IMG/VR virus record: IMGVR_UViG_3300044691_000591
Span: 1-64,000 of that record
Strand: one strand, 5' to 3'
DNA: 64,000 nt
From: a virus
In this document: positions 5,447-62,814 of the stretch, piece after piece
Layout: each line of letters opens with the position of its first letter
Numbering within the stretch: the stretch's first letter is position 1
Program-made: the position numbers and the translations under genes
Notes under the pieces: generated by a model
Database searches by the model: none
Told to the model about the DNA's origin: nothing
What the model saw: only the letters and a program-made list of their open reading frames with translations

Positions 5447-5910
5447 GCCGACACCTGCTCTGCGTGCCGGGCGAGGCCCTGTGCGGCGTGCTCCTCGATG
5501 CGGCGCGCCTGCGCGAGCAGGGCGTTGCGGTGGTGCCGCTCCGCAGCGATCCGGGCGAAGTCCCGCGCCAGCTCCTCCGCCCGCTCCGGCGCGAACCGGT
5601 ACATGGCGATGCGGGGCTGACCGAGGGCCATGTCTTGCCAGTGGGAGCCGTCCCACCACGACGGGGCCCGGTGACCGGCATTGCTGTCGATCACAGCCCA
5701 CGCGTTGCCGTAGCGGTGCATCGCCACGTAGGCCGCGGCGCCCTCGGCGTGACCGGCGATCAGGAACCGGCGCTCGTACACCGAGTCGTCGCAGACGCTG
5801 GCCTCAAGCTGCCCGGCGAGTGCAGCCTTCTCGGCCTCCAGGCGGGCGATGTCCGCGCGCAGGCGCTGGGTCGGGGTTGGGCGGTGCTGGGGCTTCGCTC
5901 CGGTGCTCAC
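5443..5910 (-). CDS. Hypothetical protein
   Basis: 155 aa, GTGA-coupled. Confidence 0.65.
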   Translation of the reverse strand: MSTGAKPQHRPTPTQRLRADIARLEAEKAALAGQLEASVCDDSVYERRFLIAGHAEGAAAYVAMHRYGNAWAVIDSNAGHRAPSWWDGSHWQDMALGQPRIAMYRFAPERAEELARDFARIAAERHHRNALLAQARRIEEHAAQGLARHAEQVSA

Positions 5911-6149
5911 TTCGCACCGCCCTTGGCGACTGCGGCGGCCAGCTGCTCGTCGGTGCCGTGCAGGAACAGGTCCATCCACGGCATCGGCTGCTCGTTCTCG
6001 TCGGCGATCGTGGCGTCCGAGTGGCAGCGGGCGCACAGCGGCGCCTCCTTGAACTCGTGCCAGCCGGCCGGAACCCACTCGAACGGGAACAGGGGACGGG
6101 TCTGCTGGCAGGAGGTGCACTTGCCCTCGGCGGGCGGCTTGGTCGTCAT
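5907..6149 (-). CDS. Zinc-finger hypothetical protein
   Basis: CTSC...CARC. Confidence 0.65.
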   Translation of the reverse strand: MTTKPPAEGKCTSCQQTRPLFPFEWVPAGWHEFKEAPLCARCHSDATIADENEQPMPWMDLFLHGTDEQLAAAVAKGGAK

Positions 6150-16700: not shown

Positions 16701-16952
16701 GTCGGTGCTCCGGACGGTACGAGGGCGAGGCGCCGGCGGGCGCTCTGTATGTCCCGGGGTCTGGGGGACGTGACTACGGCATATTCAGGTAAACGTAGAG
16801 CCTGCAACCACTGTGGCGTCAGGGAATAGCGGACGCAGTGGCGCGTGTGACAGGAGCGCTCCCAGGTGTGTTCTGGGAGCGAGCGCGAGGCGGGGTCTGG
16901 GCCTCAAGCACCTCCGCCGTGGCCGGTGGCGGGTCTCCGGGGGGTCTATAAC

Positions 16953-16968
16953 TCGAACATAAGTGCGA
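16953..16968. promoter_or_regulatory. LexA (SOS) box
   Basis: TCGAACATAAGTGCGA, 1 mismatch to actinobacterial TCGAAC-N4-GTTCGA, in an AT-richer intergenic region. Confidence 0.65.
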
Positions 16969-17067
16969 CCGTATCGGACGGTGTTGCATCCTGCACAGAC
17001 CGCGTGATCACAAATTGACCGATCTACGCTGCATGCAAGGCTCCAAGATCCATTCAGTGTAAGTTGG

Positions 17068-17364
17068 GTGCCGCAGACCGATCCCCCCGACGAGCGAACC
17101 ATCCGCCGCCGGCGAGAACTCGGTGATCGTGTGCGCATTCTCCGCGAGCTTCGGAAGCTTTCGCAAGGGACCCTCGCCAATCAGGCGGGCATGCAACGCA
17201 GCACCCTGCAGCGCATCGAATACGGGCAGACCGCCGTTTCCATAGATCGACTTTGGGCCATTGCCGACAAGTTGGGTGTGCCAATCACCAGCCTTCTCGC
17301 TGATGACTGTGCCAGTACGCGGTGGCTCGGTGGGGGTGGCTCTCGGGGTGGCGAAGGATCTTGA
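17068..17364 (+). CDS. XRE family HTH regulator
   Basis: LGDRVRILRELRKLSQGTLANQAGMQRSTLQRIEYG. Confidence 0.88.
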   Translation: MPQTDPPDERTIRRRRELGDRVRILRELRKLSQGTLANQAGMQRSTLQRIEYGQTAVSIDRLWAIADKLGVPITSLLADDCASTRWLGGGGSRGGEGS

Positions 17365-51810: not shown

Positions 51811-52257
51811 TTACGCGGCGGAGGTGGCCCGGTAGAGGTCCGCGATGGCCAGGACGAAGGTGTTGCCGTCCGGCGTCCACGGCAGGTCGTGCTTGGTGAG
51901 CGGGATGAGGTCCGCGTCGGTGCCGGTGGTGGTATCGGGGTCGTAGCAGACCACGACGGCGCTGATCGCGTTGCCGGTCGGTGCGGTGAAGGTGACGTCG
52001 GCGGCGTCGACGGCCACGCGGTCGCTGGTGTTGTCGACGGTGACGGTGACGCTGGCGAGCGCCTTCCTGGTGACGGTGGTCTGCTCGTTGGTGGTGCCGG
52101 CGACCACGGAGCCGAAGTCGGCCTTGTCGCGCAGGACGGTGTCGGTCTCCAGGCCGCTGGTCTCCAGGGCGATGAGGACGAGGCCGTCGTTTGCGGCGGG
52201 CAGGCTGGCGTAGTAGGCCACCTTGCCGAGGGCGATGTTGAAGACGATGTTGGCCAC
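51811..52257 (-). CDS. Conserved virion-like protein
   Basis: ANIVFNIALG...TPDG; RBS GGAGGAG, GTG 52257. Confidence 0.75.
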   Translation of the reverse strand: MANIVFNIALGKVAYYASLPAANDGLVLIALETSGLETDTVLRDKADFGSVVAGTTNEQTTVTRKALASVTVTVDNTSDRVAVDAADVTFTAPTGNAISAVVVCYDPDTTTGTDADLIPLTKHDLPWTPDGNTFVLAIADLYRATSAA

Positions 52258-52395
52258 GCTGATCTCCTCCACTCGGTCGAGTCGGGGGTGAACTGCGCGT
52301 TCGGCTTCGCGCGGGTCGCTGCCCTTGCTGTCGTGCTGCCAGCGTAGGGCATCAGGGGCGGCCATGGTCATCGTCGCCGGGCTGGCCGTGACATG

Positions 52396-52438
52396 CCGCA
52401 GCCCCCACTCGGCGGGGGGATGCGAGTGGGGGCTGCGG
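52396..52438. terminator. 16-bp perfect hairpin
   Basis: CCGCAGCCCCCACTCG-N11-CGAGTGGGGGCTGCGG. Confidence 0.55.
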
Positions 52439-52548
52439 TGCACGGGTGTACCAACCGTGCACCCAGCATGCCCGGTTGCGGGGCACACCGTGGGCGAATC
52501 ACGCTGTTTCTGCTGCGCCGTCGGTGACTTGGCGTCACGATGGGGCGC

Positions 52549-52710
52549 ATGGAGACCGTCGTGACGGTGCAGGCGCGCAGCGAGGCCGAGGCTGAGCGGT
52601 GGCTGGAGAAGCTGCGCACGATCGGACTGGAGCCCGTGTCGGCGCCGAAGCAGCCGGTGGGGCGCGACAGGTGGATGGTCCGCGCCCGGCCCGCGACTCA
52701 GCCAGGTTGA
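52549..52710 (+). CDS. 53-aa hypothetical protein (below ORF-track cutoff)
   Basis: METVVTVQARSEAEAERWLEKLRTIGLEP...RWMVRA; GC3-rich. Confidence 0.5.
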   Translation: METVVTVQARSEAEAERWLEKLRTIGLEPVSAPKQPVGRDRWMVRARPATQPG

Positions 52711-52898
52711 TCGACGCGACTGCCGCTGTCCACGTCCACGCCGATCTTCTGCAGCTTCCCCCCGAACGACACCGTCGCGTTGACCACCGTCCCGCCGTCG
52801 GCCCCGGTCCGCATCGCGTCCTGCACGAACGCGGCCACCTCGTCCAGCGTCAGGAACTGGCCTCTGTCGGCCGCGTGCTCGACCTTCTTCTTCGCCAT
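52698..52898 (-). CDS. Hypothetical protein
   Basis: 66 aa, RBS GAGG. Confidence 0.6.
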   Translation of the reverse strand: MAKKKVEHAADRGQFLTLDEVAAFVQDAMRTGADGGTVVNATVSFGGKLQKIGVDVDSGSRVDQPG

Positions 52899-52947
52899 GC
52901 CCTCATCCTCTCGCGTCCACCGCGCCACCGTCCGGCGGTCGCGGGCG

Positions 52948-53580
52948 TCAGTGCCACGGTGCGGGGCCGGTCCGGGACGCCCAGGCGGCCAGGGCCTGCT
53001 CGTCGAACAGGCGCAGCCCGACGCGCCGGCCGAACGCGGCGGCCTGCTCGGTGAACGTGGACGTCGTCACCACTGCGGCGAGGTCTGCGCCGTGGATCTG
53101 CCGGTACGTGCCGTTGACCGCCTGCACCATCGGGGAGCGAACCGGGTTGCCGACGGCGTAGCGCTTGGCCTGGATCAGGATCCGGCGGCCGTCCGGGGTG
53201 GTGGCCAGTACGTCGGCGGCGAGGTCTCCTGCTCCGCCGACGACGGTGACGTTGCGGCAGCCGTCGCGGCGGCACAGGTCGGCGAGGGCGTGCTCGAACT
53301 GGGTCGGGCTGAGCCGCCGGAAGTCCATGACGGGGCGCCGGCAGTAGGGCGCGATGGTGCGGCGCTGAGCGCGGTGCATCTTGATGTACACGAAGCCAAT
53401 GGCGGTGGTGGCTGCGATTGCCGCAACGCAGATCATGATCTGCGGGTGCCGGGAGAGCCACAGTGCGGCGTCGAACAGGATCAGGGCGGCAATGATCAAC
53501 ATGGGGCCGGTGATCCGCTGGCGCTGTACGCGCCTGCGCAGTTGGGCTTTCGCCTGGCGCACGCGGAGAGGTGTGGTCAC
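52948..53580 (-). CDS. Membrane-anchored Mrr-family (PD-(D/E)XK) endonuclease
   Basis: Two TM helices then LSPTQFEH..ADL, GGAGDLAADV, IQAKRY, VVTTSTFT. Confidence 0.88.
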   Translation of the reverse strand: MTTPLRVRQAKAQLRRRVQRQRITGPMLIIAALILFDAALWLSRHPQIMICVAAIAATTAIGFVYIKMHRAQRRTIAPYCRRPVMDFRRLSPTQFEHALADLCRRDGCRNVTVVGGAGDLAADVLATTPDGRRILIQAKRYAVGNPVRSPMVQAVNGTYRQIHGADLAAVVTTSTFTEQAAAFGRRVGLRLFDEQALAAWASRTGPAPWH

Positions 53581-55844
53581 GACTGGCTCATCTCGGGGAC
53601 AGGCAGCCCGTACTCGCCGCTGGCGGCCGGGTTGCGGAGGATGGTGCCGTCCTTGACCAGGCGGCTGACCGTGTTCTCGACCGTCTTGCGGGCGACACCG
53701 GACTGGTCCGTGATGGCGTCCAGGTGCAGGTAACCGACGTCCAGACCGATCGGGTCGCGGTACTCGCCCAGGACCGTGAGGATCTTCTCCTGCGCCGTCG
53801 GCTCCTTCGCCGCGGCCGGCTTCGCCTGACCGGGCGTCCACTTCGCGGCGCCGTCCTCATCCTCGTCTTCGGCGGCTGGCCCGACGGGGACCAGCGCGAT
53901 CTCGCCGCGGTCCTCCCACTCGGGCCAGTCGGCGGGAATGACGATCTGCTCCGGATCGAACAGGCCGGCGGCGGACTCCAGGATCCACAGGCGCATCATC
54001 TCGGCGCGGTCGTCGGGCCCGACGGTGTAGCCGACGCCGAACGTGCGGCTGGGGTCGTCGTCGGGGACCGTCGGGTCGTAGATCAGAGTGTCGTCCTCGT
54101 CGCTCTTCCAGAACGCCGGGATCTTGGCGGGGTCGACGCCCGCGAACGCGTCGGGCAGGTCGACCCGGTTCCTCTGGTCGCTGTCGGAGCGCAGCAGGAT
54201 CAGGGCGCCGCCGTAGAACACGTTGTCGCGGATGGAGGTGTCCGAGCCCATCTTGTCGAGGTTCAGGATCTGCCCGCACAGGATCAGGATCAGGCCCAGT
54301 GAGCGGCCCTGCTCGGCCAGGGCGGCGATGATGAATGCCGCCTCGGCCTTGTTGGTTGCCTTCTCGCCGAGGAGCTGGGCGAACTCGTCCAGGACCACGG
54401 CGGTGTAGGGCATGTCGGCGGTCGGGACGAAGTTCTTCATCCGCAGCCGCTGCGACTGCTCGACGCGGTGCAGGAGGAGGGCGTAGGCCACGCGCAGGGC
54501 GCCCATCGCACCGTCGATACCGCAGCCGGGGTAGGTGGCCATGTCCTCGACGTCGGGGTTGCTGGAGCCCTTGGGGTCGGCGTAGATGATCGCGACCCGG
54601 TTGACGTGGTAGCTGAGGCACAGGAGCTGCAGCGCCCCGCCCTTCCCGGAGCCGGTCACCCCGGCGATCAGGACGTGCCGGGCGCCCATCCTGGTGTCGT
54701 ACAGCTGCACGCGGGCAGGGCGGCCGGAGATGCCGGTACCCAGGTTCACGAACCCGTTGGCGTTGGCGAGCAGCGTCTCGGGGCCAGGCAGGGGCTGGCC
54801 GGCTTCCAGGGGTGAGCGGTCCATGAGCCGGAGCTTGGCCCGGCGGGGGTTGTTCGTGGGTTCGACGGACGTCAGCAGGGTGGTGGTGCGAAGTGCTCCG
54901 GCGATGCGGTATGAGTCGGGGGCGGTGACGGCGTCGGTGTCCTCGTCGGCGACGACCCATGCGGCGATGCCACCGGTTGCAGGGTCGGGGACGATGCCCT
55001 CCAGGTGGGTGCCGGGCATGCAGCCGCCCTTGTGGCCCACACGCCGCAGCCACAGTGCCTCCAGGGCGCTGTACTCGGCCACGTCGACGGTCGGCGCGAC
55101 CACGTCGACGTGGATGTGGCGAGAGCTGGTGTGCGGACCGTCAATGAGGTGGACCCGCGCCTCGGGGACGCCGTAGACCCCGGACACGGTCTCGGCGGTG
55201 ACCGAGACGGGGCGGCCGGGCATCGAGTGGATCGTGCCCTCCCACGCCTCCGGGCTGTAGCCGGTCAGGGTGAGGTGCTGGCCGGGGTGCGCGCCGTCCT
55301 CGCTGGAGATCCAGTCGTGCCAGTACTGCAGGACGTCGCGCTCCGGCGTCGGCTCTGGGACTGGGGCGGCGGGCGCGCGGTAGGCGGCGACCGCGCGGGG
55401 CTTGCGCAGGACGCGGCGCAGCGCGAAGTGGATGTAGCCGGTCGCGGACCACCAGGCCACCGACACAAAGCCGGCCACGGAGGGCAGCGTCATCCAGCCG
55501 GCGGCCAGGGAGTCGATTCCGGGCCAGCCGTACTGCGTCGCGGTGGCCGCCGCGGTGGCGGTCGCGATCGCGGAGACCAGGAACGGCTCGCGGTGGGCGC
55601 GCACGATGTCACCGCCCGGCAGGGCGTCCAAGTGCTCATCGGACAGCAGGTGCATGTAGTTCGCGCCGGCGGCCAGGGCGGGTACGGCCAGCAGGCAGCT
55701 GACGGTACTCGCGGCCTGACCGTCCAGCAGCGGCAGGGTCAGGGCGGTCGCCAGCGGGGCGGCGACCTGAGCCACGGCAAACCGCTTCTCGGCGGCAGGG
55801 TTCGGCAGCGCCTTGGCCGCGGGCGTGGTGTCGTTGGTGGTCAC
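53577..55844 (-). CDS. TraB/FtsK-SpoIIIE-like DNA translocase
   Basis: N-terminal TM helices; HVLIAGVTGSGKG Walker A; ADPKG; VVLDEF Walker B; EQGRSLG; C-terminal winged helix (TVENTVSRLVKDG). Confidence 0.88.
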   Translation of the reverse strand: MTTNDTTPAAKALPNPAAEKRFAVAQVAAPLATALTLPLLDGQAASTVSCLLAVPALAAGANYMHLLSDEHLDALPGGDIVRAHREPFLVSAIATATAAATATQYGWPGIDSLAAGWMTLPSVAGFVSVAWWSATGYIHFALRRVLRKPRAVAAYRAPAAPVPEPTPERDVLQYWHDWISSEDGAHPGQHLTLTGYSPEAWEGTIHSMPGRPVSVTAETVSGVYGVPEARVHLIDGPHTSSRHIHVDVVAPTVDVAEYSALEALWLRRVGHKGGCMPGTHLEGIVPDPATGGIAAWVVADEDTDAVTAPDSYRIAGALRTTTLLTSVEPTNNPRRAKLRLMDRSPLEAGQPLPGPETLLANANGFVNLGTGISGRPARVQLYDTRMGARHVLIAGVTGSGKGGALQLLCLSYHVNRVAIIYADPKGSSNPDVEDMATYPGCGIDGAMGALRVAYALLLHRVEQSQRLRMKNFVPTADMPYTAVVLDEFAQLLGEKATNKAEAAFIIAALAEQGRSLGLILILCGQILNLDKMGSDTSIRDNVFYGGALILLRSDSDQRNRVDLPDAFAGVDPAKIPAFWKSDEDDTLIYDPTVPDDDPSRTFGVGYTVGPDDRAEMMRLWILESAAGLFDPEQIVIPADWPEWEDRGEIALVPVGPAAEDEDEDGAAKWTPGQAKPAAAKEPTAQEKILTVLGEYRDPIGLDVGYLHLDAITDQSGVARKTVENTVSRLVKDGTILRNPAASGEYGLPVPEMSQS

Positions 55845-55848
55845 AGTC

Positions 55849-56217
55849 CTACTCCTGCCGGTACCAGGTGCGGTTGGCCATCTCGACGGGGGAGCGGTCG
55901 CGGGCTTCCTTGATGCCGCCGTGGGTGGTGACGGTCGCCTGCTCGGCGGCGACCGCCGCGCGGGATGCCTCGTCGGCGGCGTTGGCGTAGGCGAGCGCGG
56001 CCGTGGACACGCCCTGCATGATTCGCGAGACCTCGCGGGTCTCGGCAACGGTCGCCGGATCGACCTTGAGGGCGGCGGTCTGCTCGGCGATGCGCCCGGT
56101 GTCCTTGGCCTGGGCGTCCATCGCGGAGGCCATCTTCTTGTGCCTCTGGGTGGCGCGCCGCACGTCCCGGGCCAGGGCCCGCGTCTCGCGCAGCAGTTCG
56201 CCATAGGTCAGTGCCAC
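55849..56217 (-). CDS. Small helical protein upstream of TraB
   Basis: 122 aa, ends HGGIKEARDRSPVEMANRTWY. Confidence 0.75.
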   Translation of the reverse strand: MALTYGELLRETRALARDVRRATQRHKKMASAMDAQAKDTGRIAEQTAALKVDPATVAETREVSRIMQGVSTAALAYANAADEASRAAVAAEQATVTTHGGIKEARDRSPVEMANRTWYRQE

Positions 56218-56218
56218 G

Positions 56219-57886
56219 TCAGCCCCCCTGCTTGTCCATGTAGAACTCCCGCTCGGCGGGCGTGGTCAGAGGCGAGTCGACGACTGCCCGATAGATGCCG
56301 CCGTGCCGGGTCTCGGCGTTGGCGGCCAGGACGCGCACCGCTTCACTGCCGCGCTGGGCGCTCTTCTCGATCTCCTCGGCCCTCAGGCGCAGCACCTGGG
56401 ATCGTTCCGCGAGGCGCGACAGAAGCGCGACGATCCGGGCACCCCCATGGACGCTCTTCGCGTTCTCGGCCAGGCGCTGCGCCCGGGTCGCCATCTCCAC
56501 GGCCTGCAGGCGGGTGGCCTTGCTGCCCTCGGCGACGCGGCCCATCGCGGCCTTCTTGTCACCCAGGCGGCGTTCGAAGGCCTTGAGGGTGCGGACCTCG
56601 CCGCGGCTCATCGTGTGGCTCGCCCCGTCGGCGACGAACTCGACGGCCTTGTCTCCGACGGAGGTCACCCGTGCGGGCTCTGCAGCAGTCGGGGCCGGCT
56701 TCTTGGCGAGGTCGACGGTCGACCCGCTGGCCGGCGGCAGCTTCGGAGCGGCTGACTTCTTGGGCTTGACGGCGTTGCGGGCCCGGGTGTCGCTCATCTT
56801 CTTGCCCTCCGCCTTGTCGGCGGCGGTGCGGTCGTCCCAGCCGTCGACAGCGCCGTCCTTGTAGGCCCTGGCCTGTCCGACGGTCGCGGCGACGCGGGTG
56901 CCGTCGCGGTACCCGGCCTCCCGCGCGGGGCGGGTGCGCAGCTTCGGAGCGGCGGCCGGCTCGGTTGTCGCGGCCGGGCTCGGCTTGGCCGCGGCGCTGG
57001 TGTCCTTCACCAGATCGACGGGCGCAGTGTCGTCGGGCTTGATCGCAGCGGCGGTCTTGGTGTTCAGGCTCTTCGGGTCGGCCTTCTTCGTCAGGTCCGG
57101 TCCGTCGGGGCGCGCGGCAGCGGGCGTCGAGGGTTCCGGCGTCTTGGCTGCGGTGCCGCCTTTCGCGCTCGCGGGCCCCGCGGTCTTGGCGTCCGCCCCC
57201 TTGGGGCTCGGGCCCTTGGCGGTCTTGGTGTCGCGGTAGTCCCGGTCGTCGTTCTTGGAGACCGTGTCCGCTGTCGCGGCCTTCGCGTTCGACGTCTTCG
57301 CGGCGCTACTGTCCGCCTTCTTCAGATCCTTGTTGTCCCGGGCTGCAGTGTCGGCCTTCGACGTCCTGGCGTCGGAGGTCTTGGCGTCCGTCGCGGCCTT
57401 GCGGTCGCGGTTGGTCCTGCCCTGCTGCGTCTTGTTCCGGAGGTCGGCCAGCTTGCTGTCGCGGGTGGCGTGGGCCTTGCCGTCGTGCCGGTGCGTGCGC
57501 TCGGCCTTGTTCGTGCCGGTGCTGGTAGCGCCGGAGACCCGGGCCTCAGTGATGGTGTGGGTCCGCTTGACCGCTGTACCGCCGCGGGCCAGCCGGGCGG
57601 CCAGGGCGTGCACCAGGGCGGCCACGGCGCTGCCGCGGTTGTTGTCGCCTGGACTGGCCTTGCCGTTCTTGCCGTTGCCGCCCTTGGCGCTGGCCTCCTC
57701 GGAGACCTCGCCCATGGTCGCCGTGGTCCCCAGCGGCTTCACCGGCCGGGCGGGCTCGACCGGCGTCAGGATCCGCGCAAGCGGGCCCGGCGCCGTGGCC
57801 GGGGCGGCTGCAGCAGCGGGTCCTGCGGGCGCGGCCGACTGCTCGGTCACACCGGCCGGGACGGGCGGCGCGGTCGCTGTCGCCAT
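56219..57886 (-). CDS. Large low-complexity K/A/T-rich protein with C-terminal helical domain
   Basis: REAGYRDG motif; ends HGGIYRAVVDSPLTTPAEREFY; RBS GAGGAG. Confidence 0.75.
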   Translation of the reverse strand: MATATAPPVPAGVTEQSAAPAGPAAAAAPATAPGPLARILTPVEPARPVKPLGTTATMGEVSEEASAKGGNGKNGKASPGDNNRGSAVAALVHALAARLARGGTAVKRTHTITEARVSGATSTGTNKAERTHRHDGKAHATRDSKLADLRNKTQQGRTNRDRKAATDAKTSDARTSKADTAARDNKDLKKADSSAAKTSNAKAATADTVSKNDDRDYRDTKTAKGPSPKGADAKTAGPASAKGGTAAKTPEPSTPAAARPDGPDLTKKADPKSLNTKTAAAIKPDDTAPVDLVKDTSAAAKPSPAATTEPAAAPKLRTRPAREAGYRDGTRVAATVGQARAYKDGAVDGWDDRTAADKAEGKKMSDTRARNAVKPKKSAAPKLPPASGSTVDLAKKPAPTAAEPARVTSVGDKAVEFVADGASHTMSRGEVRTLKAFERRLGDKKAAMGRVAEGSKATRLQAVEMATRAQRLAENAKSVHGGARIVALLSRLAERSQVLRLRAEEIEKSAQRGSEAVRVLAANAETRHGGIYRAVVDSPLTTPAEREFYMDKQGG

Positions 57887-57908
57887 CACGGACTCCTCTC
57901 TCGATTGA

Positions 57909-58014
57909 CCCCCCACCCACCCCCCACCCGACCTGAGAGAACAGGGTCGGGGCTCTGACCTGCACGGGAGAGCCGTATGCGCGCTCTCTTGGCGGGTGGG
58001 GGGTGGGTGGGGGG
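57909..58014. repeat. Perfect 22-bp G/C-tract inverted repeat, 62-bp spacer
   Basis: CCCCCCACCCACCCCCCACCCG (57909-57930) / CGGGTGGGGGGTGGGTGGGGGG (57993-58014). Confidence 0.9.
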
Positions 58015-58020
58015 AGATGA

Positions 58021-58590
58021 CTAACGGCTGCGTGCGGTCAGCAACTTCTTCGCCTTGCCGCCGACCAGCACGACACCGATCGACCCCAGGACGATCAGCC
58101 CGACGTTCGAGCCGGTCCCCGCCCCACCGCCGGTGCTGCTGGTGCTCGACGCGTCGGCCAGGGCGGGCGAACCGGTCGCCGGGTAGATCGAGCCGCAGTC
58201 CGACACCCCGCCGAAGTTGTTGCCGGCCTTCGCGATGCACGCCTCCACCGCGAGACGACGAGCCCGCTGAGCAGGGGTTTCCTGCGCAGCGGCCTTCGCC
58301 TGGGCGGCGGCCTGCTGCTCCTGGGCCAGCTGCACCCTCGCCGCATCCACGGCGACCTGGCCGGCGCGGATATGCGCGTTGGCCTGGTTGGCCTCGTACT
58401 GCGACCACGTGAACATGCCAGTGGCCGCCACGGCCGCGAAGCCAAGACCGAGACCGGCCTTGGCGCGAGGGCTGAGCTTGGCCGGCGGCGGGGGCTCCGT
58501 CGGCTTCGGCGTCTGGTAGGGCTGATAGGGCATCGAGCTGATGTTGTAGCCGGGATCGTTGTAGGGGGACTGGTAGCGGTACTCGGTCAT
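58021..58590 (-). CDS. Two-TM membrane protein with extracytoplasmic coiled coil (Spd-like position)
   Basis: TM, Q/A coiled coil, Cys pair, second TM, basic tail. Confidence 0.75.
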   Translation of the reverse strand: MTEYRYQSPYNDPGYNISSMPYQPYQTPKPTEPPPPAKLSPRAKAGLGLGFAAVAATGMFTWSQYEANQANAHIRAGQVAVDAARVQLAQEQQAAAQAKAAAQETPAQRARRLAVEACIAKAGNNFGGVSDCGSIYPATGSPALADASSTSSTGGGAGTGSNVGLIVLGSIGVVLVGGKAKKLLTARSR

Positions 58591-59486
58591 TGCTCTTCTC
58601 CATTCAGGGCTGGGACATCTGCGCGGTCGAGGATCTCCGCGCGGATCGTCTTCGCGACGGTGTCCGAAGGCAGCCCGTGGCCGGCTCGGTCGATCGCTTG
58701 GGCGAACTCGTTGGCGGTCGGCTGGCGCCGGAGGCGTTGGAACTCGGCGTGGAAAATCGGCTTGGCGATCTCCACCCACTCGTCGAGTGGGCGACGGGGC
58801 GGTCGCTTCCCGGCGGCGGAACGGGGCGCCTTCGGTCGACGAGTCGTCGGCGGCTTGGCCGGCTTCTCGTCGACGGAAGGTGCGTCGGAACGGTCGACGG
58901 AAGCCGTCGGGTCGTCGACGGTTCGGGCCGGTTCCGACGCGACGGGAAGCGTCGGTTCGACGCCGCTCCCGTCGACGGGAGCCCGTGTTCCGTCGGTCGT
59001 TCCGTCGTCGGCAGCGGACTGATCCGTCGCAGCATCCGTCAATGACTCGGTCGGCTCCCGTCGCGGGGTGAGGAACTTCTTGATCTGTCCCATGAGGACT
59101 GCGAATGACAAAAGCGCGCCGCAAGGTGGGACCGCTGCGACGACGTAGGTCATGGGCGCGGCGCCTGCTCCGACGCCGGCAACGTTGAGGGCAACGGAGC
59201 CGACGGAGCCGATCAGAGTCAGGCAGATGGCCCACCCGTCAGTCCGGCGGAGCAGGTTGGCGACGAGGACCATCACCTCGCCGAGGACGATGAAGGTGTC
59301 GACGGTGCCGGGCCACGCCCAGGCGCGAGCTGCTCTGAGGCCGTGGCCGCTGGCAACGTCGTGGAGGTGCTCGTAGGAGAGCCAGAACGCTGCGGCGGTC
59401 AGGGCGATGGAGAGGATGACCGCGAGCAGCATGAGGCGCCGGATAGTCTCCGGCGAAGCGACGGGACTGTCGTCGGTCTCGGTCAT
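58587..59486 (-). CDS. DUF2637 (Spd-like) membrane protein with C-terminal helical DNA-binding-like domain
   Basis: AFWLSYEHLHDVA...RAWAWPGTVD...SVALNVAGV...AAVPP; four TM helices. Confidence 0.85.
   Translation of the reverse strand: MTETDDSPVASPETIRRLMLLAVILSIALTAAAFWLSYEHLHDVASGHGLRAARAWAWPGTVDTFIVLGEVMVLVANLLRRTDGWAICLTLIGSVGSVALNVAGVGAGAAPMTYVVAAVPPCGALLSFAVLMGQIKKFLTPRREPTESLTDAATDQSAADDGTTDGTRAPVDGSGVEPTLPVASEPARTVDDPTASVDRSDAPSVDEKPAKPPTTRRPKAPRSAAGKRPPRRPLDEWVEIAKPIFHAEFQRLRRQPTANEFAQAIDRAGHGLPSDTVAKTIRAEILDRADVPALNGEEQ
58869..59063. repeat. Oriented CGACGG repeats converging on an 18-bp palindrome
   Basis: GTCGACGG at 58869, 58893, 58914; CGACGGGA at 58940; GCTCCCGTCGACGGGAGC at 58965-58982; inverted copies at 58988, 59000, 59022, 59034, 59056. 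Confidence 0.7.
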
Positions 59487-59488
59487 GG

Positions 59489-60379
59489 TCAGCTCCCCTG
59501 CTTGGCGGCGGTGAGCGCCTGCTCGTTGTGCCCCCGGATGAAGTCGGCCAGGGGTCCGGTGTTCTCGAACCACTCGGTGCTGCCGACGCGCTGGTCGGCG
59601 AAGCGCTTGTGCATGGCCTGCTCCATGCGGCGGTCACCGGCAATGAGCAGGACGATGTCGCTGGTGCGCAGCGAGAGGGCGCTCACCCGGGCGCGGAGGC
59701 TGCTGGTCGTGCCGATCTTGACGCGGCTGCCGTTGCCGATGAAGTAAACGTGGGCCTTGTGCTTGCCCTCCGGGACCGGCCAGTTGAAGCGCGGCTCTGC
59801 CGGCTTGGCAGCCATGGGCGCGGTCGCCGGCGCGTCGAGGTTGAGGTGGGCGAGCGCAGCCAGCCGCCTTTCCAGCCGAGCCTTCTGCCTCTTCGCTTCG
59901 AGCGCTACGCCGCGCTGCTTGTTCCGCTCGATCAGGAGGTGGTCGATCTCGGACTGATCGTCCGGGTGCAGGGACTGGGTCTTCATCCAGGCGCGCCACA
60001 GCCACGTCACGGGGATGGCGAGCATCGAGATCACCGCGCCGTCCCAGGGTCCAGTGCGAGGCCAGCCCGTCCAGGTGATCAGCGAGAGGATGATCACCTG
60101 GAGCAGCAGACCGCCGCGGCGGCCGAGAAAGGCGCCCTCGGAGTCGTAGCGGTTGTCCCACTCGACCCAGGCGCACCAGAGCCAGAGCAGGCCAAAGATG
60201 CCGCCGGCGAGATACATCTGGACTTGGTCCTGCCACGTCTTGGCCCATGGAGCGAGCAGGGACCCAAGGAGCCCCGCCTCGCAGGTGGCAGTCACGAACA
60301 TCAGGACGGCGGTGATCCATCCGGTGACTGCTGCCTCGTGGTCGCGGGACTCCTTGGTGGGCTGCTCGATCGTGCTCAC
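59489..60379 (-). CDS. Four-TM membrane protein fused to a GIY-YIG/T5orf172 nuclease domain
   Basis: HVYFIGNGSRVKIGTT...R...E..MHKRF...EWF. Confidence 0.82.
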   Translation of the reverse strand: MSTIEQPTKESRDHEAAVTGWITAVLMFVTATCEAGLLGSLLAPWAKTWQDQVQMYLAGGIFGLLWLWCAWVEWDNRYDSEGAFLGRRGGLLLQVIILSLITWTGWPRTGPWDGAVISMLAIPVTWLWRAWMKTQSLHPDDQSEIDHLLIERNKQRGVALEAKRQKARLERRLAALAHLNLDAPATAPMAAKPAEPRFNWPVPEGKHKAHVYFIGNGSRVKIGTTSSLRARVSALSLRTSDIVLLIAGDRRMEQAMHKRFADQRVGSTEWFENTGPLADFIRGHNEQALTAAKQGS

Positions 60380-60518
60380 GTGTTGCTGCTCCTATTCGGG
60401 CGACGTGGATGCGTGCTCTGCGGGGTGGCGCCCGTCCCGCCGGGGGTGCGGGCCGGGCGCCGGGCGTCCAGTCCGGCCGCGGGGGACGGAATCGGGCTGG
60501 ACGCGTCTTGGGGCTGCC

Positions 60519-60743
60519 TCAGTGGCTGAGGCAGCGGTCGTGGTTGGACATGGTGCAGGCGGCGCGGCGGGCGCGGCGCTGGGGCATGATCTCGGCGTAG
60601 TAGGCGTCGGAAGCCTTCTGGCGGGCGGCCGCGTCGGCGGCTTGGCGCCGGTTGTCGGCGGCGGCTTCCTGGCGGCGCTTCTCGGAGTCGTGGTAGCTGG
60701 TGTCGGTGGCGGGTGCCTTGGGTGCGAACGGGTTCCAGGCCAT
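60519..60743 (-). CDS. Hypothetical protein
   Basis: 74 aa, RBS GGAGG. Confidence 0.65.
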   Translation of the reverse strand: MAWNPFAPKAPATDTSYHDSEKRRQEAAADNRRQAADAAARQKASDAYYAEIMPQRRARRAACTMSNHDRCLSH

Positions 60744-60746
60744 GCG

Positions 60747-61067
60747 TCAGTCCTCCATTGCGGTGAGCTGGGGCAGGTGTCCGCCGTTGAGTTCCCGCAG
60801 CTGGTTGAGGGCGGTGCGGAAGGCGTCGGCGGCGTCGGGGCGTTGGGCGTAGCTGGCGTCGACGAGGTTCTGGGCGAGCTGGTTGACGCGGGCGACGGCG
60901 GCGGTGACCTGGTCGCGCTTCTCTTCGGCCTGACTCGCGAGCCAGAGGGCGTGGAAGTCGACGGCACCGTCGGCTGCGGTGTACTGGTCGAGGACGGCTT
61001 TGATCTCCGCGTCGGTGGCGGGGCGTCCGCCGGGCTGGTCTGCGCTGTAGATCGTGGGCTGGGTCAT
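60747..61067 (-). CDS. Hypothetical helical protein
   Basis: 106 aa, ATGA-coupled. Confidence 0.65.
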   Translation of the reverse strand: MTQPTIYSADQPGGRPATDAEIKAVLDQYTAADGAVDFHALWLASQAEEKRDQVTAAVARVNQLAQNLVDASYAQRPDAADAFRTALNQLRELNGGHLPQLTAMED

Positions 61068-61207
61068 CGGTGGGCCTTCTTCGTGGCGTGCACGGTCGGG
61101 TGGCTGGGCGCGTAGGTGTGGGCGCTGGCGGTTCCGGCGTGGCTGTAGCACCAGATCGCGGCGCCGATGATCGCGGCGACGGCGCACTTGGCGAGGAAGG
61201 CCCTCAT
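61064..61207 (-). CDS. 47-aa putative secreted peptide (below ORF-track cutoff)
   Basis: MRAFLAKCAVAAIIGAAIWCYSHAGTASA-HTYAPSHPTVHATKKAHR; ATGA overlaps at both ends. Confidence 0.65.
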   Translation of the reverse strand: MRAFLAKCAVAAIIGAAIWCYSHAGTASAHTYAPSHPTVHATKKAHR

Positions 61208-61617
61208 CGCGCACCGCCTGCCTGGTTGTAGAGCACGGCACCGTCGGGGTAGCTGAGGCCGTAGGCGGCGGCGAGTTTGCGGGCCATGTCTTCGACGCCG
61301 TCCTCGAAGCCGTCCGCGTCTTCGCTGCCGGTGAGGTAGTGGTCGACGTAGGTGAGGAGCACGTCCTGGGCGGTGTCGTTGTCGGCGTCGAGGGCGTCTC
61401 CGAGGTAGGTGAGTGCGGCGTTGAGGGTGTCGGCGTGGTCTTGGTCGCTGGCTTCGAGGTGGTCGCGGGCGGCGGTGAGGAGTTCGGCGAGGGTGACGCC
61501 GTCGATGTCGGTGTGGCCGCCGGGTGGGCAGCCGGGGGCGAGGAATGCGATGTCGTTGGCGTGGCGGGCGATGATCGCTTTGAGGCGGGGGCTGGCGTCC
61601 GGGTCGGTGGCGGTCAT
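61204..61617 (-). CDS. Acidic hypothetical protein
   Basis: 137 aa, D-rich, coupled. Confidence 0.65.
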   Translation of the reverse strand: MTATDPDASPRLKAIIARHANDIAFLAPGCPPGGHTDIDGVTLAELLTAARDHLEASDQDHADTLNAALTYLGDALDADNDTAQDVLLTYVDHYLTGSEDADGFEDGVEDMARKLAAAYGLSYPDGAVLYNQAGGAR

Positions 61618-61865
61618 GCCGGGCTCCCGAGCTGGTTGGGCTCCAGGGAGAAGAACAGGACCGTCGGGGGCTGGCCGCCAGTGGCGTCCTTCATCACGAA
61701 GGCGCGGACGACCTCGTACACCTCGGCGCGGGTCTGGCCCGGCTCCGGGGTGAAGGTGGAGCGCCAGGTGCCGGAGATTTCGCCGTCCCGGGTGGGCCAC
61801 TGTGCGGACATGACCCAGTGGTGGCTGCCCTGCGGGTTCGGGCCGGGAGGCGTCGGGGTGCTCAT
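61614..61865 (-). CDS. Small protein, paralog 2 (VLFFSL motif)
   Basis: HWVMSA...GTW...YEVVR...VLFFSLEPNQLG. Confidence 0.7.
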   Translation of the reverse strand: MSTPTPPGPNPQGSHHWVMSAQWPTRDGEISGTWRSTFTPEPGQTRAEVYEVVRAFVMKDATGGQPPTVLFFSLEPNQLGSPA

Positions 61866-62098
61866 GCCGCACCGCCGATGGCGTCCGGTGTGAGCGAGAA
61901 GAACAGGACGACGAACTCGGCACTGCCGATCTTGTCGGCCACGATGTCGCGGATGACGTTGTAGCTGCTGGTGTGGGTGTGCATGCCGGGGACGGCGTTG
62001 ATCGATCCGTCGAAGGTTCCCTGGAGTCCACGGGGCGATAGGGCCGTCATGATCCAGTGGAGTTCGATCTCGGGGAGCCCTGCCTCGGCGGCGTTCAC
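61862..62098 (-). CDS. Small protein, paralog 1 (VLFFSL motif)
   Basis: HWIMTA...GTF...YNVIR...VLFFSLTPDAIG. Confidence 0.7.
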   Translation of the reverse strand: MNAAEAGLPEIELHWIMTALSPRGLQGTFDGSINAVPGMHTHTSSYNVIRDIVADKIGSAEFVVLFFSLTPDAIGGAA

Positions 62099-62334
62099 GC
62101 CGCACCGCCGGGCAGGTCCTCGCCGAACGCCCGGTCGGCCGCGAACTGGAACCGGTCGTAGCTGCCGTAAGCCCCGAGGGCGTGGTCGACGTCAGCGTCG
62201 GTGGGCCAGGTGGCGGGGACCTCGGTGAGCGGACGCGACGGCGGGGCCGGAAGGGCGGTGACCCGAGCGCCGGAGCTGGGCTCTGACGGCGAGGGGGTGA
62301 CGTGGTCAATGAGGTTGGCGCTACGATCTGCCAT
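62095..62334 (-). CDS. Hypothetical protein, first gene of the transfer-like operon
   Basis: 79 aa, RBS ACAGGAAG. Confidence 0.6.
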   Translation of the reverse strand: MADRSANLIDHVTPSPSEPSSGARVTALPAPPSRPLTEVPATWPTDADVDHALGAYGSYDRFQFAADRAFGEDLPGGAA

Positions 62335-62368
62335 GTTCGCTTCCTGTTCAGAGCAGGTGGCGGATGTA

Positions 62369-62472
62369 CTCAGCCCGGTGTGCAACCACCGGATTGAGGT
62401 TGGGCCGCCGGGTGTGCAACCACCCGGCGGCCGTTCTGCGGCCCCGATCCGACTGCAACACCGGATTGGGGC
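62369..62472 (-). promoter_or_regulatory. Three tandem hairpins with identical GUUGCA loops in the 5' leader
   Basis: Stems 62369-62398, 62403-62432, 62441-62472; loops TGCAAC (+ strand) at 62381, 62415, 62454. Confidence 0.85.
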
Positions 62473-62491
62473 TTTGTGTTGTGCGGGTTCC

Positions 62492-62521
62492 AACATACGC
62501 AGACCCGATTGACCGCGTCAA
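62492..62521 (-). promoter_or_regulatory. Promoter TTGACG-N18-TATGTT with palindromic operator
   Basis: TTGAC-CGC-GTCAA (62509-62521) overlaps the -35 element; divergent from an HTH gene. Confidence 0.65.
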
Positions 62522-62544: not shown

Positions 62545-62814
62545 ATGCCGACGACCTCCACCGGAGAGGAGCACCCCGACCTGATGACCATTCCGGAGAT
62601 CGCCGCGTACAAGGGCCTCACCCGGCAGCGGATCCACAAGCTGGCCACGACCGATCCGAACTGGCCAGCCCCCGCGATTCAGGCAGCCAGGACTCGTGTC
62701 TACCGGCGCACGGACGTCGACTTGTACTTCGAGACGCGCCAGGTCAATCCGGGACGCCGCACGGATCTGGAGTCGAAGCCCGACGCCACCCCACCGTCCG
62801 AGCAAGGAGCCTGA
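62545..62814 (+). CDS. AlpA/excisionase-like HTH regulator
   Basis: LMTIPEIAAYKGLTRQRIHKLA...WPAP...PGRRTDL. Confidence 0.8.
   Translation: MPTTSTGEEHPDLMTIPEIAAYKGLTRQRIHKLATTDPNWPAPAIQAARTRVYRRTDVDLYFETRQVNPGRRTDLESKPDATPPSEQGA

What the first reader, a model, noticed from the sequence alone, without database searches (positions are those of the whole stretch)
62335..62521. Leader RNA with three different stems all displaying the loop GUUGCA
Three consecutive 12-13 bp hairpins lie between a clear promoter and the first gene of the ~10 kb operon. The outer stems differ in sequence but stay paired while the hexaloop is invariant, which is the pattern expected of a multivalent protein-binding RNA. 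It could be a nut/put-like antitermination element for the long operon or a Csr-like regulatory array. I cannot assign it to a known family.
Basis: partly seen in the sequence, partly recalled or inferred. Interest (0 to 1): 0.72.

Follow-up and report, generated by a model that had tools for sequence, protein, structure and literature searches.

The report
Antisense hairpin RNA guarding transfer operon
The three hairpins are real and conserved in about 30 Streptomyces phage/plasmid-like elements, but the strand that folds best is the one opposite the operon, so they most likely form a small antisense RNA that silences the operon's first gene rather than a protein-binding leader.

Summary
Observation confirmed. 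Three GC-rich hairpins (62369-62398, 62403-62432, 62441-62472) each display TGCAAC (+) / GUUGCA (-). These are the only such hairpins in the 84.8-kb viral contig. The module recurs in 32 related loci (Streptomyces prophages, phage-plasmid-like contigs, soil viral contigs). Stems covary strongly (92% paired, 17 pairs with double changes, 0/500 shuffles), and Rfam has no match.

Two corrections follow.

1. The loop is not universal. It is shared within an element, with few exceptions, but differs between elements: TGCAAC, TGCTAC, TGCGAC, TGTCAC, TGTCAT, TGTCGY.
2. The + strand is the folded strand.
   - It is more stable in 26/27 loci, by 12.7 kcal/mol on average.
   - It has 85 G.U pairs against 26.
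   - It forms an extra 5' hairpin over the anti-Shine-Dalgarno sequence.
   - A TANNNT -10 hexamer lies in codons 3-5 of the leftward gene in 26/31 loci, against 0/388 in the background.
   - A T-rich tail follows the last hairpin.

A conserved leftward promoter sits 14-19 nt beyond the last hairpin in most loci.

Best reading (0.5): convergent promoters produce a ~150-nt countertranscript complementary to the whole 5' UTR, SD and AUG of the Tra/Spd-like operon mRNA. The loops act as element-specific recognition loops, as in FinP, RNA I or Anti-Q. No expression data exist. Why the loops match within an element is unexplained.

The parts
62322..62327 (+). Putative -10 hexamer (TACGAT) of the rightward antisense promoter P_as. 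It lies inside codons 3-5 of the leftward gene.
   Evidence: TANNNT lies 1-5 nt before the complement of the start codon in 26/31 printed loci (a 27th, L006, only by eye), although the encoded residues differ. The background is 0/388 start sites in this contig. Its function as a promoter is inferred.
62333..62367 (+). SL0, the 5' hairpin of the predicted antisense RNA. It contains the complement of the Shine-Dalgarno sequence (cttcct, 62340-62345).
   Evidence: Fold. In 27/27 loci this stretch folds better on the + strand (about -16 against -8 kcal/mol). RNAalifold pairs include G.U pairs that exist only on the + strand.
62369..62398 (+). HP1, hexaloop TGCAAC at 62381-62386.
   Evidence: covariation.
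62403..62432 (+). HP2, 12 perfect pairs, hexaloop TGCAAC at 62415-62420.
   Evidence: Across the family G.T on the + strand outnumbers A.C by 29 to 3 in this hairpin.
62441..62472 (+). HP3, TGCAAC at 62454-62459, with a nearly invariant outer stem CCCCG/CGGGG. Predicted terminator stem of the antisense RNA.
   Evidence: conserved outer stem.
62473..62484 (+). T-rich tail (tttgtgttgtgc) after HP3.
   Evidence: Mean 4.7 T in the 9 nt after the last hairpin in 32 loci, against 1.4 expected. There is no U-enrichment in the leftward direction. The strict terminator scan found no canonical terminator.
62492..62521 (-). P_L, the leftward promoter TTGACG-18-TATGTT. The predicted start is near 62485, so the operon mRNA carries the complement of all hairpins as a ~150-nt 5' UTR.
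   Evidence: An equivalent TANNNT with a -35-like hexamer lies 14-44 nt beyond the last hairpin in 28/31 loci, mostly at 14-19 nt.
62508..62520 (.). Palindrome TTGACCGCGTCAA over the overlapping -35 regions of P_L and P_R. Candidate operator of the divergent regulator. A related copy lies at 62298-62309.
   Evidence: Inverted repeat I1. Other loci carry different palindromes at the same place, varying with the regulator type. The operator role is inferred.
62095..62334 (-). First gene of the leftward operon (79 aa, no family match), with SD AGGAAG 6 nt upstream.
62545..62814 (+). Divergent HTH_17/excisionase-like regulator. It is probably leaderless, because no SD precedes its ATG.
   Evidence: Pfam HTH_17 is sub-threshold (16.9 bits, cutoff 27, E 0.008). 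The PHROG excisionase/regulator family matches at 1e-7. Homologues sit at the same place in most loci.
51811..62334 (-). The leftward operon that the module precedes. It encodes a DUF2637 protein (58587-59573), a T5orf172/MUG113 protein (59489-60379), an FtsK/TraB-like ATPase (53577-56204) and an Mrr-like nuclease (52948-53841).
   Evidence: A syntenic DUF2637 protein and a TraB-like ATPase occur in other loci.

Best explanation
The hairpins belong to a convergent sense/antisense module that controls the leftward Tra/Spd-like operon.

The proposed layout is this. P_L starts the operon mRNA about 10 nt to the right of HP3. P_as has its -10 hexamer inside codons 3-5 of the first gene and starts a rightward RNA at about the complement of the start codon. 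That RNA folds into SL0 (holding the anti-SD sequence), then HP1, HP2 and HP3. It stops at HP3 plus its U-rich tail, giving about 150 nt here and 120-170 nt elsewhere. It is complementary to the whole 5' UTR, SD and AUG of the operon mRNA.

The proposed action is as follows. The hexaloops start pairing with the complementary loops of the nascent leader (kissing). The duplex then spreads over the SD and AUG. This blocks translation of the first gene and exposes the duplex to RNase III. Convergent transcription may add interference. The loop sequence sets which element's mRNA is recognised, which would explain why it differs between related elements.

Shown here: the structure, its covariation, the strand bias, the two conserved -10-like hexamers, the T-rich tail and the loop classes.

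Inferred: that both promoters fire, that the RNA terminates at HP3, and that pairing represses the operon.
For: 1. The structure is real. On 17 loci, 92.3% of cells are paired against at most 50% when partners are slid. Seventeen pairs have changes on both sides, and 0/500 shuffles reach this. RNAalifold finds 22 compensatory pairs.
2. The + strand is the folded strand.
   - Folding each strand alone, + has more pairs in 48 of 84 unique hairpins and - in 9. G.U pairs number 85 against 26.
   - On the model alignment, G.T on + outnumbers A.C by 79 to 23.
   - The whole module is more stable as + RNA in 26/27 loci, by 12.7 kcal/mol on average. SL0 is more stable on + in 27/27.
   - In the window the values are -87.6 against -75.2 kcal/mol.
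3. A TANNNT hexamer sits on the + strand just before the start-codon complement in 26/31 printed loci (a 27th by eye), although the residues it encodes differ. The background is 0/388.
4. A T-rich tail follows the last hairpin on the + strand only (4.7 T in 9 nt against 1.4 expected). HP3's GC-rich stem base is nearly invariant.
5. A leftward TANNNT with a -35-like hexamer lies just beyond the last hairpin in 28/31 loci, so the target mRNA carries the complement.
6. The module keeps its place between the start codon and P_L although the flanking proteins are barely alignable.
7. Loops differ between elements. L045 and L079/L087 have near-identical stems but A against T in both loops.
Against: - There are no RNA data. 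No RNA run holds this sequence, so neither transcript nor its ends have been seen.
- P_as has no recognisable -35.
- The strict consensus scan finds no + strand promoter and no canonical terminator here or in three homologous loci. The T tails are interrupted (4-6 T in 9 nt).
- The TANNNT hexamer is absent in five of the 31 loci as printed (L011, L016, L042, L065, L006). For L006 a hexamer was seen only by eye.
- Perfect sense/antisense complementarity does not by itself require the loops of one element to be identical. That central feature is explained only by an added assumption: redundant kissing loops, or an unidentified loop reader.
- The loops lack the YUNR U-turn motif typical of antisense recognition loops.
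- Counts over related sequences are not independent events. The family was first collected with patterns that fixed part of the apical sequence.
Confidence: 0.5

Rival explanations
1. The leftward leader RNA (loops GUUGCA) is bound at its two to four identical loops by an element-encoded protein. The protein either makes RNA polymerase termination-resistant over the ~10-kb operon (like nut/boxB with N) or represses translation.
For: The hairpins lie in the 5' UTR downstream of a conserved leftward promoter. Loops are identical within an element and differ between elements. This is the pattern seen for boxB and N among lambdoid phages (established knowledge). The - strand RNA also folds well (z -4.5).
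Against: - Pairing is systematically poorer on the - strand. The + strand has 85 G.U pairs and the - strand 26. The - strand is less stable in 26/27 loci.
- The first gene product is not arginine-rich and is not conserved.
- The neighbouring regulator is of three unrelated types, all found with the same TGCAAC loop.
- Two elements with the same loop share almost no proteins.
- This model does not explain the + strand TANNNT hexamer or the T tail.
Confidence: 0.13
2. The + strand RNA is made, but its main role is not antisense pairing. In one version it is a multivalent binding RNA (sponge or scaffold) for a loop-reading factor. In another it is an attenuator leader of a second, upstream promoter for the divergent regulator gene, with HP3 as the regulated terminator.
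For: All the + strand evidence applies. Identical loops within an element call for a single reader. All loops fit U-G-N-N-R-Y, which resembles an anticodon loop. Read-through of HP3 would run into the regulator gene 60-130 nt downstream.
Against: No candidate reader is conserved next to the module. The right-hand gene is of different types, has its own promoter-like sequence and lacks an SD. The overlap with the SD and AUG of the leftward gene is exact and conserved, which a sponge would not need.
Confidence: 0.15
3. The repeats act as DNA. In one version they are direct repeats of an asymmetric ~12-bp site for a DNA-binding protein, for example a clt-like loading site for the TraB-like translocase. 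In another they are extruded cruciforms or single-stranded hairpins used in replication.
For: - Known Streptomyces clt loci combine short direct repeats with inverted repeats. Examples are pIJ101 G(C/A)AAC, pJV1 CCGCACA(C/G)(C/G) and pWTY27 TGACACC (PMC3583192). These resemble GCAAC and GCACACC here.
- All copies point the same way.
- A TraB-like ATPase is encoded in every operon examined.
Against: - A duplex site needs no flanking complementary arms, yet the arms covary.
- Pairing is strand-biased through G.T against A.C, which duplex DNA cannot distinguish.
- The module keeps a fixed register to the start codon and to two promoters.
- The C-terminal DNA-reading domains of the TraB-like proteins are of different types in elements with the same loop.
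- Single-stranded + DNA is not excluded by the G.T bias, but it leaves the TANNNT hexamer and T tail unexplained.
Confidence: 0.1
4. The hairpins are only stable stem-loops with no specific recognition. They would act as tandem terminators or insulators that stop stray rightward transcription from reaching the switch region, or as 5' stabilisers of the operon mRNA.
For: The stems are GC-rich, and a T-rich tail follows the last hairpin on the + strand. Hairpin clusters are known to terminate transcription (PMC8355165, listed; abstract only).
Against: This does not explain a hexaloop and apical stem that are held constant within an element and switch in concert between close relatives. It also does not explain the conserved TANNNT placed exactly one module-length upstream.
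Confidence: 0.08

Closest known systems
FinP antisense RNA and the traJ leader of F-like plasmids
   Same: A small countertranscript made of stem-loops is encoded opposite the 5' UTR and ribosome-binding site of the first gene of a transfer operon. Loop sequences differ between related plasmids and give allele specificity (established knowledge).
   Different: FinP has two stem-loops with different loops and needs the chaperone FinO. Here there are a 5' hairpin plus two to four hairpins whose loops are identical within an element. No FinO-like gene was seen. The host is an actinobacterium and the element is a tailed phage or phage-plasmid. There is no sequence similarity and no Rfam match.
ColE1 RNA I / RNA II, and pCF10 Anti-Q / prgQ
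   Same: Convergent promoters lie 150-220 nt apart. The short RNA has three stem-loops and is fully complementary to the 5' part of the long RNA. Pairing begins by loop-loop kissing, and single loop changes create new specificities. In pCF10 the target is a conjugation operon (established knowledge).
   Different: Those systems control primer maturation (ColE1) or terminator choice (pCF10). Here no U-tract follows the hairpins in the sense direction, so blocking the SD and AUG is the likelier output. Loop identity within one RNA is not a feature of those systems.
Lambda nut (boxA/boxB) with N, and HK022 put
   Same: Hairpins sit in the leader of a long early operon, immediately downstream of the promoter. 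The loop is phage-specific.
   Different: The better-folded strand is the opposite one. There are several copies rather than one. No arginine-rich N-like first gene is present, and no boxA was found.
Staphylococcus RNAIII and Listeria LhrC: sRNAs with redundant identical loop motifs
   Same: Several hairpins of one RNA display the same short loop motif. The motif is used as a redundant seed or kissing site (established knowledge).
   Different: Those RNAs act in trans on many mRNAs through C-rich loops that pair with SD sequences. Here the RNA is cis-encoded and its loops are not C-rich. No trans target near a start codon was found in the contig.
The tra-korA intergenic region of Streptomyces plasmid pIJ101
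   Same: The gene layout is the same: a leftward transfer operon and a divergent GntR repressor. On the strand antisense to tra there are an anti-SD hairpin, an 11-bp hairpin with a hexaloop, and a CCCCG/CGGGG hairpin followed by a T/G-rich tail. That strand folds better (-52.6 against -42.3 kcal/mol).
   Different: pIJ101 has only one long hairpin, and its loop (TTCACG) differs. The covariance model scores it at 12 bits (E 0.03), so this is a resemblance and not membership. I know of no published function for these hairpins, and none was found in the searches.

Membership tests
cis-encoded antisense (countertranscript) regulators of transfer or replication genes | A promoter on the opposite strand within or next to the 5' end of the target gene | tested here: inconclusive
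   A conserved TANNNT occurs in 26/31 printed loci (a 27th by eye) at a fixed distance from the start-codon complement, against 0/388 in the background. However, there is no -35, no hit in the strict scan, and no transcript data.
cis-encoded antisense (countertranscript) regulators of transfer or replication genes | The short RNA folds into stem-loops under selection on its own strand | tested here: met
   Covariation. The + strand is favoured.
cis-encoded antisense (countertranscript) regulators of transfer or replication genes | The short RNA ends at an intrinsic terminator | tested here: inconclusive
   The last hairpin has a GC-rich base and a T-rich tail on the + strand only. The tail is interrupted, and the strict scan found no terminator.
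cis-encoded antisense (countertranscript) regulators of transfer or replication genes | The target mRNA contains the complementary region, including the ribosome-binding site | tested here: met
   A leftward promoter-like site lies beyond the last hairpin in 28/31 loci. The SD and AUG lie within SL0 and the predicted 5' end. Promoter activity itself was not shown.
cis-encoded antisense (countertranscript) regulators of transfer or replication genes | Both RNAs are expressed and pairing represses the target | not testable with these tools
   No RNA run holds the sequence.
Lambda-type nut site with N antiterminator | The hairpin is functional on the operon's own transcript | tested here: not met
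   The - strand has fewer pairs (more pairs in 9 hairpins against 48 for +). It is less stable in 26/27 loci.
Lambda-type nut site with N antiterminator | A small arginine-rich RNA-binding protein is encoded just downstream | tested here: not met
   First-gene products are 54-191 aa, are not conserved, and have N-termini of the MxDRT type that are not arginine-rich. No Pfam or PHROG hit was found.
CsrB/RsmZ-type protein sponge | Multiple GGA motifs in hairpin loops, with a CsrA partner | tested here: not met
   The loops are TGCAAC and its variants, with no GGA. There is no Rfam match. That CsrA is absent from Actinobacteria is from general knowledge and was not tested.
[quoted passage not shown] | Clustered short direct repeats read on duplex DNA by the translocase's C-terminal wHTH domain | tested here: inconclusive
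   Direct repeats in one orientation are present, and they resemble published clt repeats. However, the arms covary with strand bias, and the TraB-like C-termini differ in type among elements with the same loop.
Any described RNA family (Rfam 15) | A covariance-model match | tested here: not met
   In the window region the best hit is 27 bits against a 40-bit gathering score, with E 0.1-8. Eight further loci give nothing at E <= 0.1.

The most novel reading that the evidence does not exclude
This would be a previously undescribed family of structured small RNAs in Streptomyces phage-plasmids, prophages and integrative elements. Its two to four hairpins carry one programmable hexaloop of the form U-G-N-N-R-Y, which resembles an anticodon loop. 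The loop would act as an RNA 'address' giving each element private control, or immunity-like cross-control, of a transfer/kil-type operon. The concerted loop switches would imply a dedicated loop reader (protein or RNA) that has not been identified. The same antisense layout may extend to classical plasmids such as pIJ101.
Probability: 0.3. Interest if true: 0.8.

Novelty: new variant of a known kind. Interest (0 to 1): 0.62.

Why it matters
Control of the Streptomyces double-stranded-DNA transfer (tra/spd, 'kil') genes is described so far only through protein repressors such as KorA and TraR. A conserved countertranscript would add an RNA layer to that control. It could also explain how related co-resident elements avoid or exert cross-control, and why expression of lethal kil functions stays tight.

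The module is compact at about 150 nt. It has natural orthogonal variants that differ by one to three loop bases, so it could serve as a set of orthogonal riboregulators for high-GC actinomycetes.

The case also carries a methodological point. A hairpin array in a leader can belong to the other strand, and wobble-pair asymmetry is a simple way to tell.

Tried and rejected
- **Rfam:** a search of the region and of eight homologous loci on both strands gave nothing usable.
- **BLASTN:** a 3-kb query against the phage and plasmid collections gave no match.
- **Protein-seeded locus search:** a search seeded with the HTH protein found nothing in viral contigs.
- **Sequencing runs:** no RNA holder is listed. 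The holders are eight soil-metagenome DNA runs (the kind is a guess), so expression could not be examined.
- **Hairpins as the divergent regulator's operator:** rejected. The regulator is of three unrelated types, all found with the same loop. Each locus has a separate palindrome over the promoters.
- **First leftward gene as an N-like reader:** rejected, because it is not conserved and not basic.
- **A conserved reader elsewhere:** tblastn of all ORFs of this contig against an 85-kb Streptomyces contig carrying the same TGCAAC array found six weak matches. None is a plausible RNA binder.
- **Trans targets of the loop:** no GTTGCA lies next to a start codon in the contig.
- **SpdA palindrome (sps) and TraR repeats of known plasmids:** these have different sequences.
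- **Sigma-54 promoter, DnaA box, CRP-like and DasR-like sites:** considered from memory and dropped, because spacing or sequence does not fit.
- **Type III antitoxin repeats:** dropped. Those repeats are identical tandem units on the same strand as the toxin gene.
- **Ungapped wobble count:** the first count on the TGCAAC set alone was undecided (25 against 15). The strand was settled only with the larger set and independent folding.
- **Strict promoter/terminator scan:** it found only P_L in the window and nothing in three homologous loci.
- **Papers on the pIJ101 and pJV1 clt loci, TraB recognition sequences and phiC31 terminators:** not held in the library.

Full report
**What is there**

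Between the leftward gene that starts at 62334 and the rightward gene that starts at 62545 lie three GC-rich hairpins. HP1 is 62369-62398, HP2 is 62403-62432 (12 perfect pairs) and HP3 is 62441-62472. Each is centred on TGCAAC on the + strand, which reads GUUGCA on the - strand. TGCAAC occurs 11 times in the whole 84,849-base contig. Only these three copies sit in the middle of an inverted repeat.

**Context**

The contig has 70% G+C and is held as a virus record. It encodes:
- terminase, portal, Dit and Gp37-like tail proteins;
- a tape-measure-sized protein with an NlpC/P60 domain;
- a serine integrase.

The run of genes to the left of the hairpins (62334 down to about 51800) encodes small unknown proteins, a T5orf172/MUG113 protein, a DUF2637 protein, a low-complexity protein, an FtsK/TraB-like ATPase with a C-terminal winged helix, and an Mrr-like nuclease. 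This is the Streptomyces-type transfer/spread block that earlier notes of this scan also flagged.

The rightward gene is a weak match to the HTH_17/excisionase-like regulators: the Pfam score is below threshold and the PHROG match is at 1e-7. The only sigma-70-like promoter that the consensus scan finds is TTGACG-18-TATGTT on the - strand, at 62521-62492, reading into the hairpins.

**The family**

Exact-pattern scans and then a covariance model (R1) recovered the same module in 32 loci. They include:
- Streptomyces genomes (S. albireticuli, S. natalensis, S. mirabilis, S. evansiae and unnamed strains);
- one Streptantibioticus genome;
- actinobacterial metagenome-assembled genomes;
- IMG/VR viral contigs and soil metagenomes.

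The module is sporadic. It was found in 3 of 151 sampled Streptomyces genomes, with one significant copy per carrier genome.

The order of parts is always the same: start of a leftward gene, its ribosome-binding site, a small hairpin, two to four long hairpins, a promoter region, and then a divergent regulator gene.

The stems differ between hairpins and between loci but stay paired:
- On 17 loci, 92.3% of cells pair, against at most 50% when partners are slid by one to three columns.
- Seventeen pairs change on both sides, and no shuffle out of 500 reaches the observed values.
- RNAalifold finds 22 compensatory pairs.

Rfam has no matching family.

**The loop is element-specific, not universal**

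My first patterns fixed TGCAAC. The model and a pattern that left the four inner loop bases free then found members with other loops:
- TGCGAC (L064, L095);
- TGCTAC (L079, L087, L090);
- TGTCAC (L071, L080, L084, L096, L097);
- TGTCAT (L101);
- TGTCGT/TGTCGC (L065).

Within an element the loops are usually identical. There are three exceptions. L090 has TGCTAC twice and TGTCAC once. L101 has one CGTCAT. L006 has a fourth hairpin with TTCAAC.

L045 (TGCAAC) and L079/L087 (TGCTAC) have nearly identical stems, yet both loops differ by the same A-to-T change. Meanwhile the flanking coding DNA is only about 75-79% identical. The apical stem GGTG/CACC and the first two loop bases (TG) are constant. 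All loops fit U-G-N-N-R-Y. The loop therefore behaves as a specificity determinant.

**Which strand folds**

A G-C pair that decays to G.T on one strand is an A.C mismatch on the other, so wobble pairs reveal which strand is under selection for pairing.
- An ungapped count on the first set was undecided (25 against 15).
- On the model alignment of 32 loci, G.T on the + strand outnumbers A.C by 79 to 23. In HP2 the ratio is 29 to 3.
- That alignment leans towards its own strand, so I also folded each strand of each of 84 unique hairpins separately. The + strand has more pairs in 48 and the - strand in 9. G.U pairs number 85 against 26.
- Folding the whole stretch from the start-codon complement to the tail, the + RNA is more stable in 26 of 27 loci, by 12.7 kcal/mol on average.
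- The stretch between the start codon and HP1 forms a hairpin (SL0) of about -16 kcal/mol on the + strand, against -8 on the - strand, in all 27 loci.
- In the window the values are -87.6 (z -5.9) and -75.2 kcal/mol (z -4.5).

The strand selected for structure is thus antisense to the operon.

**Signals on that strand**

Three conserved signals bracket the module.
- *A -10-like hexamer.* A TANNNT hexamer lies 1-5 nt before the complement of the leftward start codon in 26 of the 31 loci as printed. L006 also shows one by eye, outside the printed stretch. The residues it encodes differ (MTDRT, MKQST, MPNIT, VSKTT, MPDGT and others). The constraint is therefore on the DNA. It forces a T at the third position of codon 4 in a genome with about 90% G+C at third positions. 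No such hexamer occurs at 388 other candidate starts in this contig.
- *A T-rich tail.* The nine bases after the last hairpin hold 4.7 T on average, against 1.4 expected. The corresponding position in the leftward direction shows no U-enrichment. The base of HP3's stem (CCCCG/CGGGG) is nearly invariant.
- *A leftward promoter.* On the - strand a TANNNT with a -35-like hexamer lies beyond the last hairpin in 28 of 31 loci, usually exactly 14-19 nt away.

Two convergent promoter-like sites therefore bracket the module. The strict E. coli-type scan sees only the leftward one in the window. It finds nothing in three homologous loci, and it finds no canonical terminator anywhere. That scan requires two good hexamers and uninterrupted stems.

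**Mechanism proposed**

P_as starts an RNA at about the complement of the AUG. The RNA folds into SL0 (which holds the anti-SD sequence), HP1, HP2 and HP3, and it ends at the T tail. Its length is about 150 nt here. P_L starts the operon mRNA a few bases beyond that tail, so the two RNAs are complementary over the entire 5' UTR, SD and AUG.

By analogy with FinP/traJ, RNA I/RNA II and Anti-Q/prgQ, the loops would nucleate pairing. The duplex would then block ribosome binding and invite RNase III. Convergent transcription may add interference. Because no U-tract follows the hairpins in the sense direction, attenuation by termination seems unlikely.

The different loop classes would keep related elements from controlling each other, or would allow same-class exclusion.

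What has been shown is structural and comparative. Expression, RNA ends and effect are all inferred.

**What this does not explain**

Complementarity alone does not require the loops of one element to be the same or to change together. There are two possibilities:
- The loops are redundant kissing sites, as with the repeated loop motifs of RNAIII or LhrC.
- A single loop reader exists.

I could not find such a reader.
- The adjacent regulator is HTH_17-like in most loci, GntR in L045/L079/L087, and a third type in L011/L016/L042/L064/L065. Loci carry different palindromes over the promoters.
- The first leftward gene is not conserved.
- This contig and an 85-kb Streptomyces contig with the same loop share only six weak protein matches.

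**Rivals**

- *Leader-bound protein (nut-like).* This fits the position and the loop specificity but not the strand bias or the + strand signals.
- *Sponge or attenuator role for the + RNA.* This remains possible.
- *DNA site such as clt.* Published clt repeats resemble the motif: G(C/A)AAC, CCGCACA(C/G)(C/G) and TGACACC (PMC3583192). However, duplex recognition explains neither the covarying arms nor the wobble asymmetry. The TraB-like C-termini also differ in type among elements with the same loop.
- *Plain terminators.* These would not keep a fixed, switchable loop.

**A wider hint**

The tra-korA intergenic region of pIJ101 has the same layout on the strand antisense to tra: an anti-SD hairpin, an 11-bp hairpin with a hexaloop, and a CCCCG/CGGGG hairpin with a T/G-rich tail. 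That strand folds better (-52.6 against -42.3 kcal/mol). The model score is too low to claim membership.

**Limits**

- The family was gathered with patterns and a model that fix part of the apical sequence. The constancy of GGTG/CACC is therefore partly built in, and more loop classes probably exist.
- Counts over related sequences are not independent events.
- No transcript data were available.

Noticed in passing
window 62298-62320 and 62498-62520: A 23-nt inverted repeat (78% complementary) brackets the whole hairpin module. Its cores are TGACGTGGTCAA and TTGACCGCGTCA. One core sits where the -35 of the putative antisense promoter would be. The other lies over the overlapping -35 regions of the two divergent promoters. 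They may be paired operators for the HTH regulator.
   Followed up: partly
L103 (pIJ101, NC_001387) 5841-5932: The classical tra-korA intergenic region of pIJ101 shows an analogous set of hairpins that fold better on the strand antisense to tra. The set ends in a CCCCG/CGGGG hairpin with a T/G-rich tail. This suggests that antisense control of tra leaders may be widespread in Streptomyces plasmids.
   Followed up: partly
window 62322-62334 (codons 1-5 of the leftward gene) and homologous loci: In nearly all loci residue 5 is Thr or Ser, codon 3 has A at its second position, and codon 4 ends in T. This is a DNA-level constraint, not a protein-level one.
   Followed up: yes
L090:6257-6382, L101:926-1047, L006:6264-6482: These elements have mixed or degenerate loops. 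L090 has TGCTAC twice and TGTCAC in the third hairpin. L101 has CGTCAT once. L006 has four hairpins, the last with TTCAAC. They may be intermediates of specificity switching.
   Followed up: no
G001:C26 (L066-L070; 85,032 bases) and other carrier contigs of 64-116 kb: Several Streptomyces assemblies carry the module on separate contigs of roughly phage-genome size, alongside terminase and portal genes. This suggests episomal phage-plasmids. Other copies lie inside contigs of 300-900 kb and so are integrated.
   Followed up: partly
window 1840-2349 (+): A 169-aa protein combines a GIY-YIG nuclease domain with a Phd/YefM antitoxin-like domain (sub-threshold: 27.6 bits against a 29.8 cutoff). It is one of the few proteins shared (49% identity over 70 aa) with the otherwise unrelated 85-kb Streptomyces contig.
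   Followed up: no
window 62545 and homologous loci: The divergent regulator gene has no Shine-Dalgarno sequence. A -10-like hexamer ends about 8 nt before its ATG (GAGACT in the window, GAGAAT or AAGAAT elsewhere). This suggests a leaderless mRNA. Its -35 overlaps the -35 of the leftward promoter on the other strand.
   Followed up: partly
window 16803-17192: Three of the few other GTTGCA/TGCAAC occurrences in the contig cluster in the less GC-rich stretch just downstream of the serine integrase gene. This could be the attP region. No hairpin context was seen.
   Followed up: no
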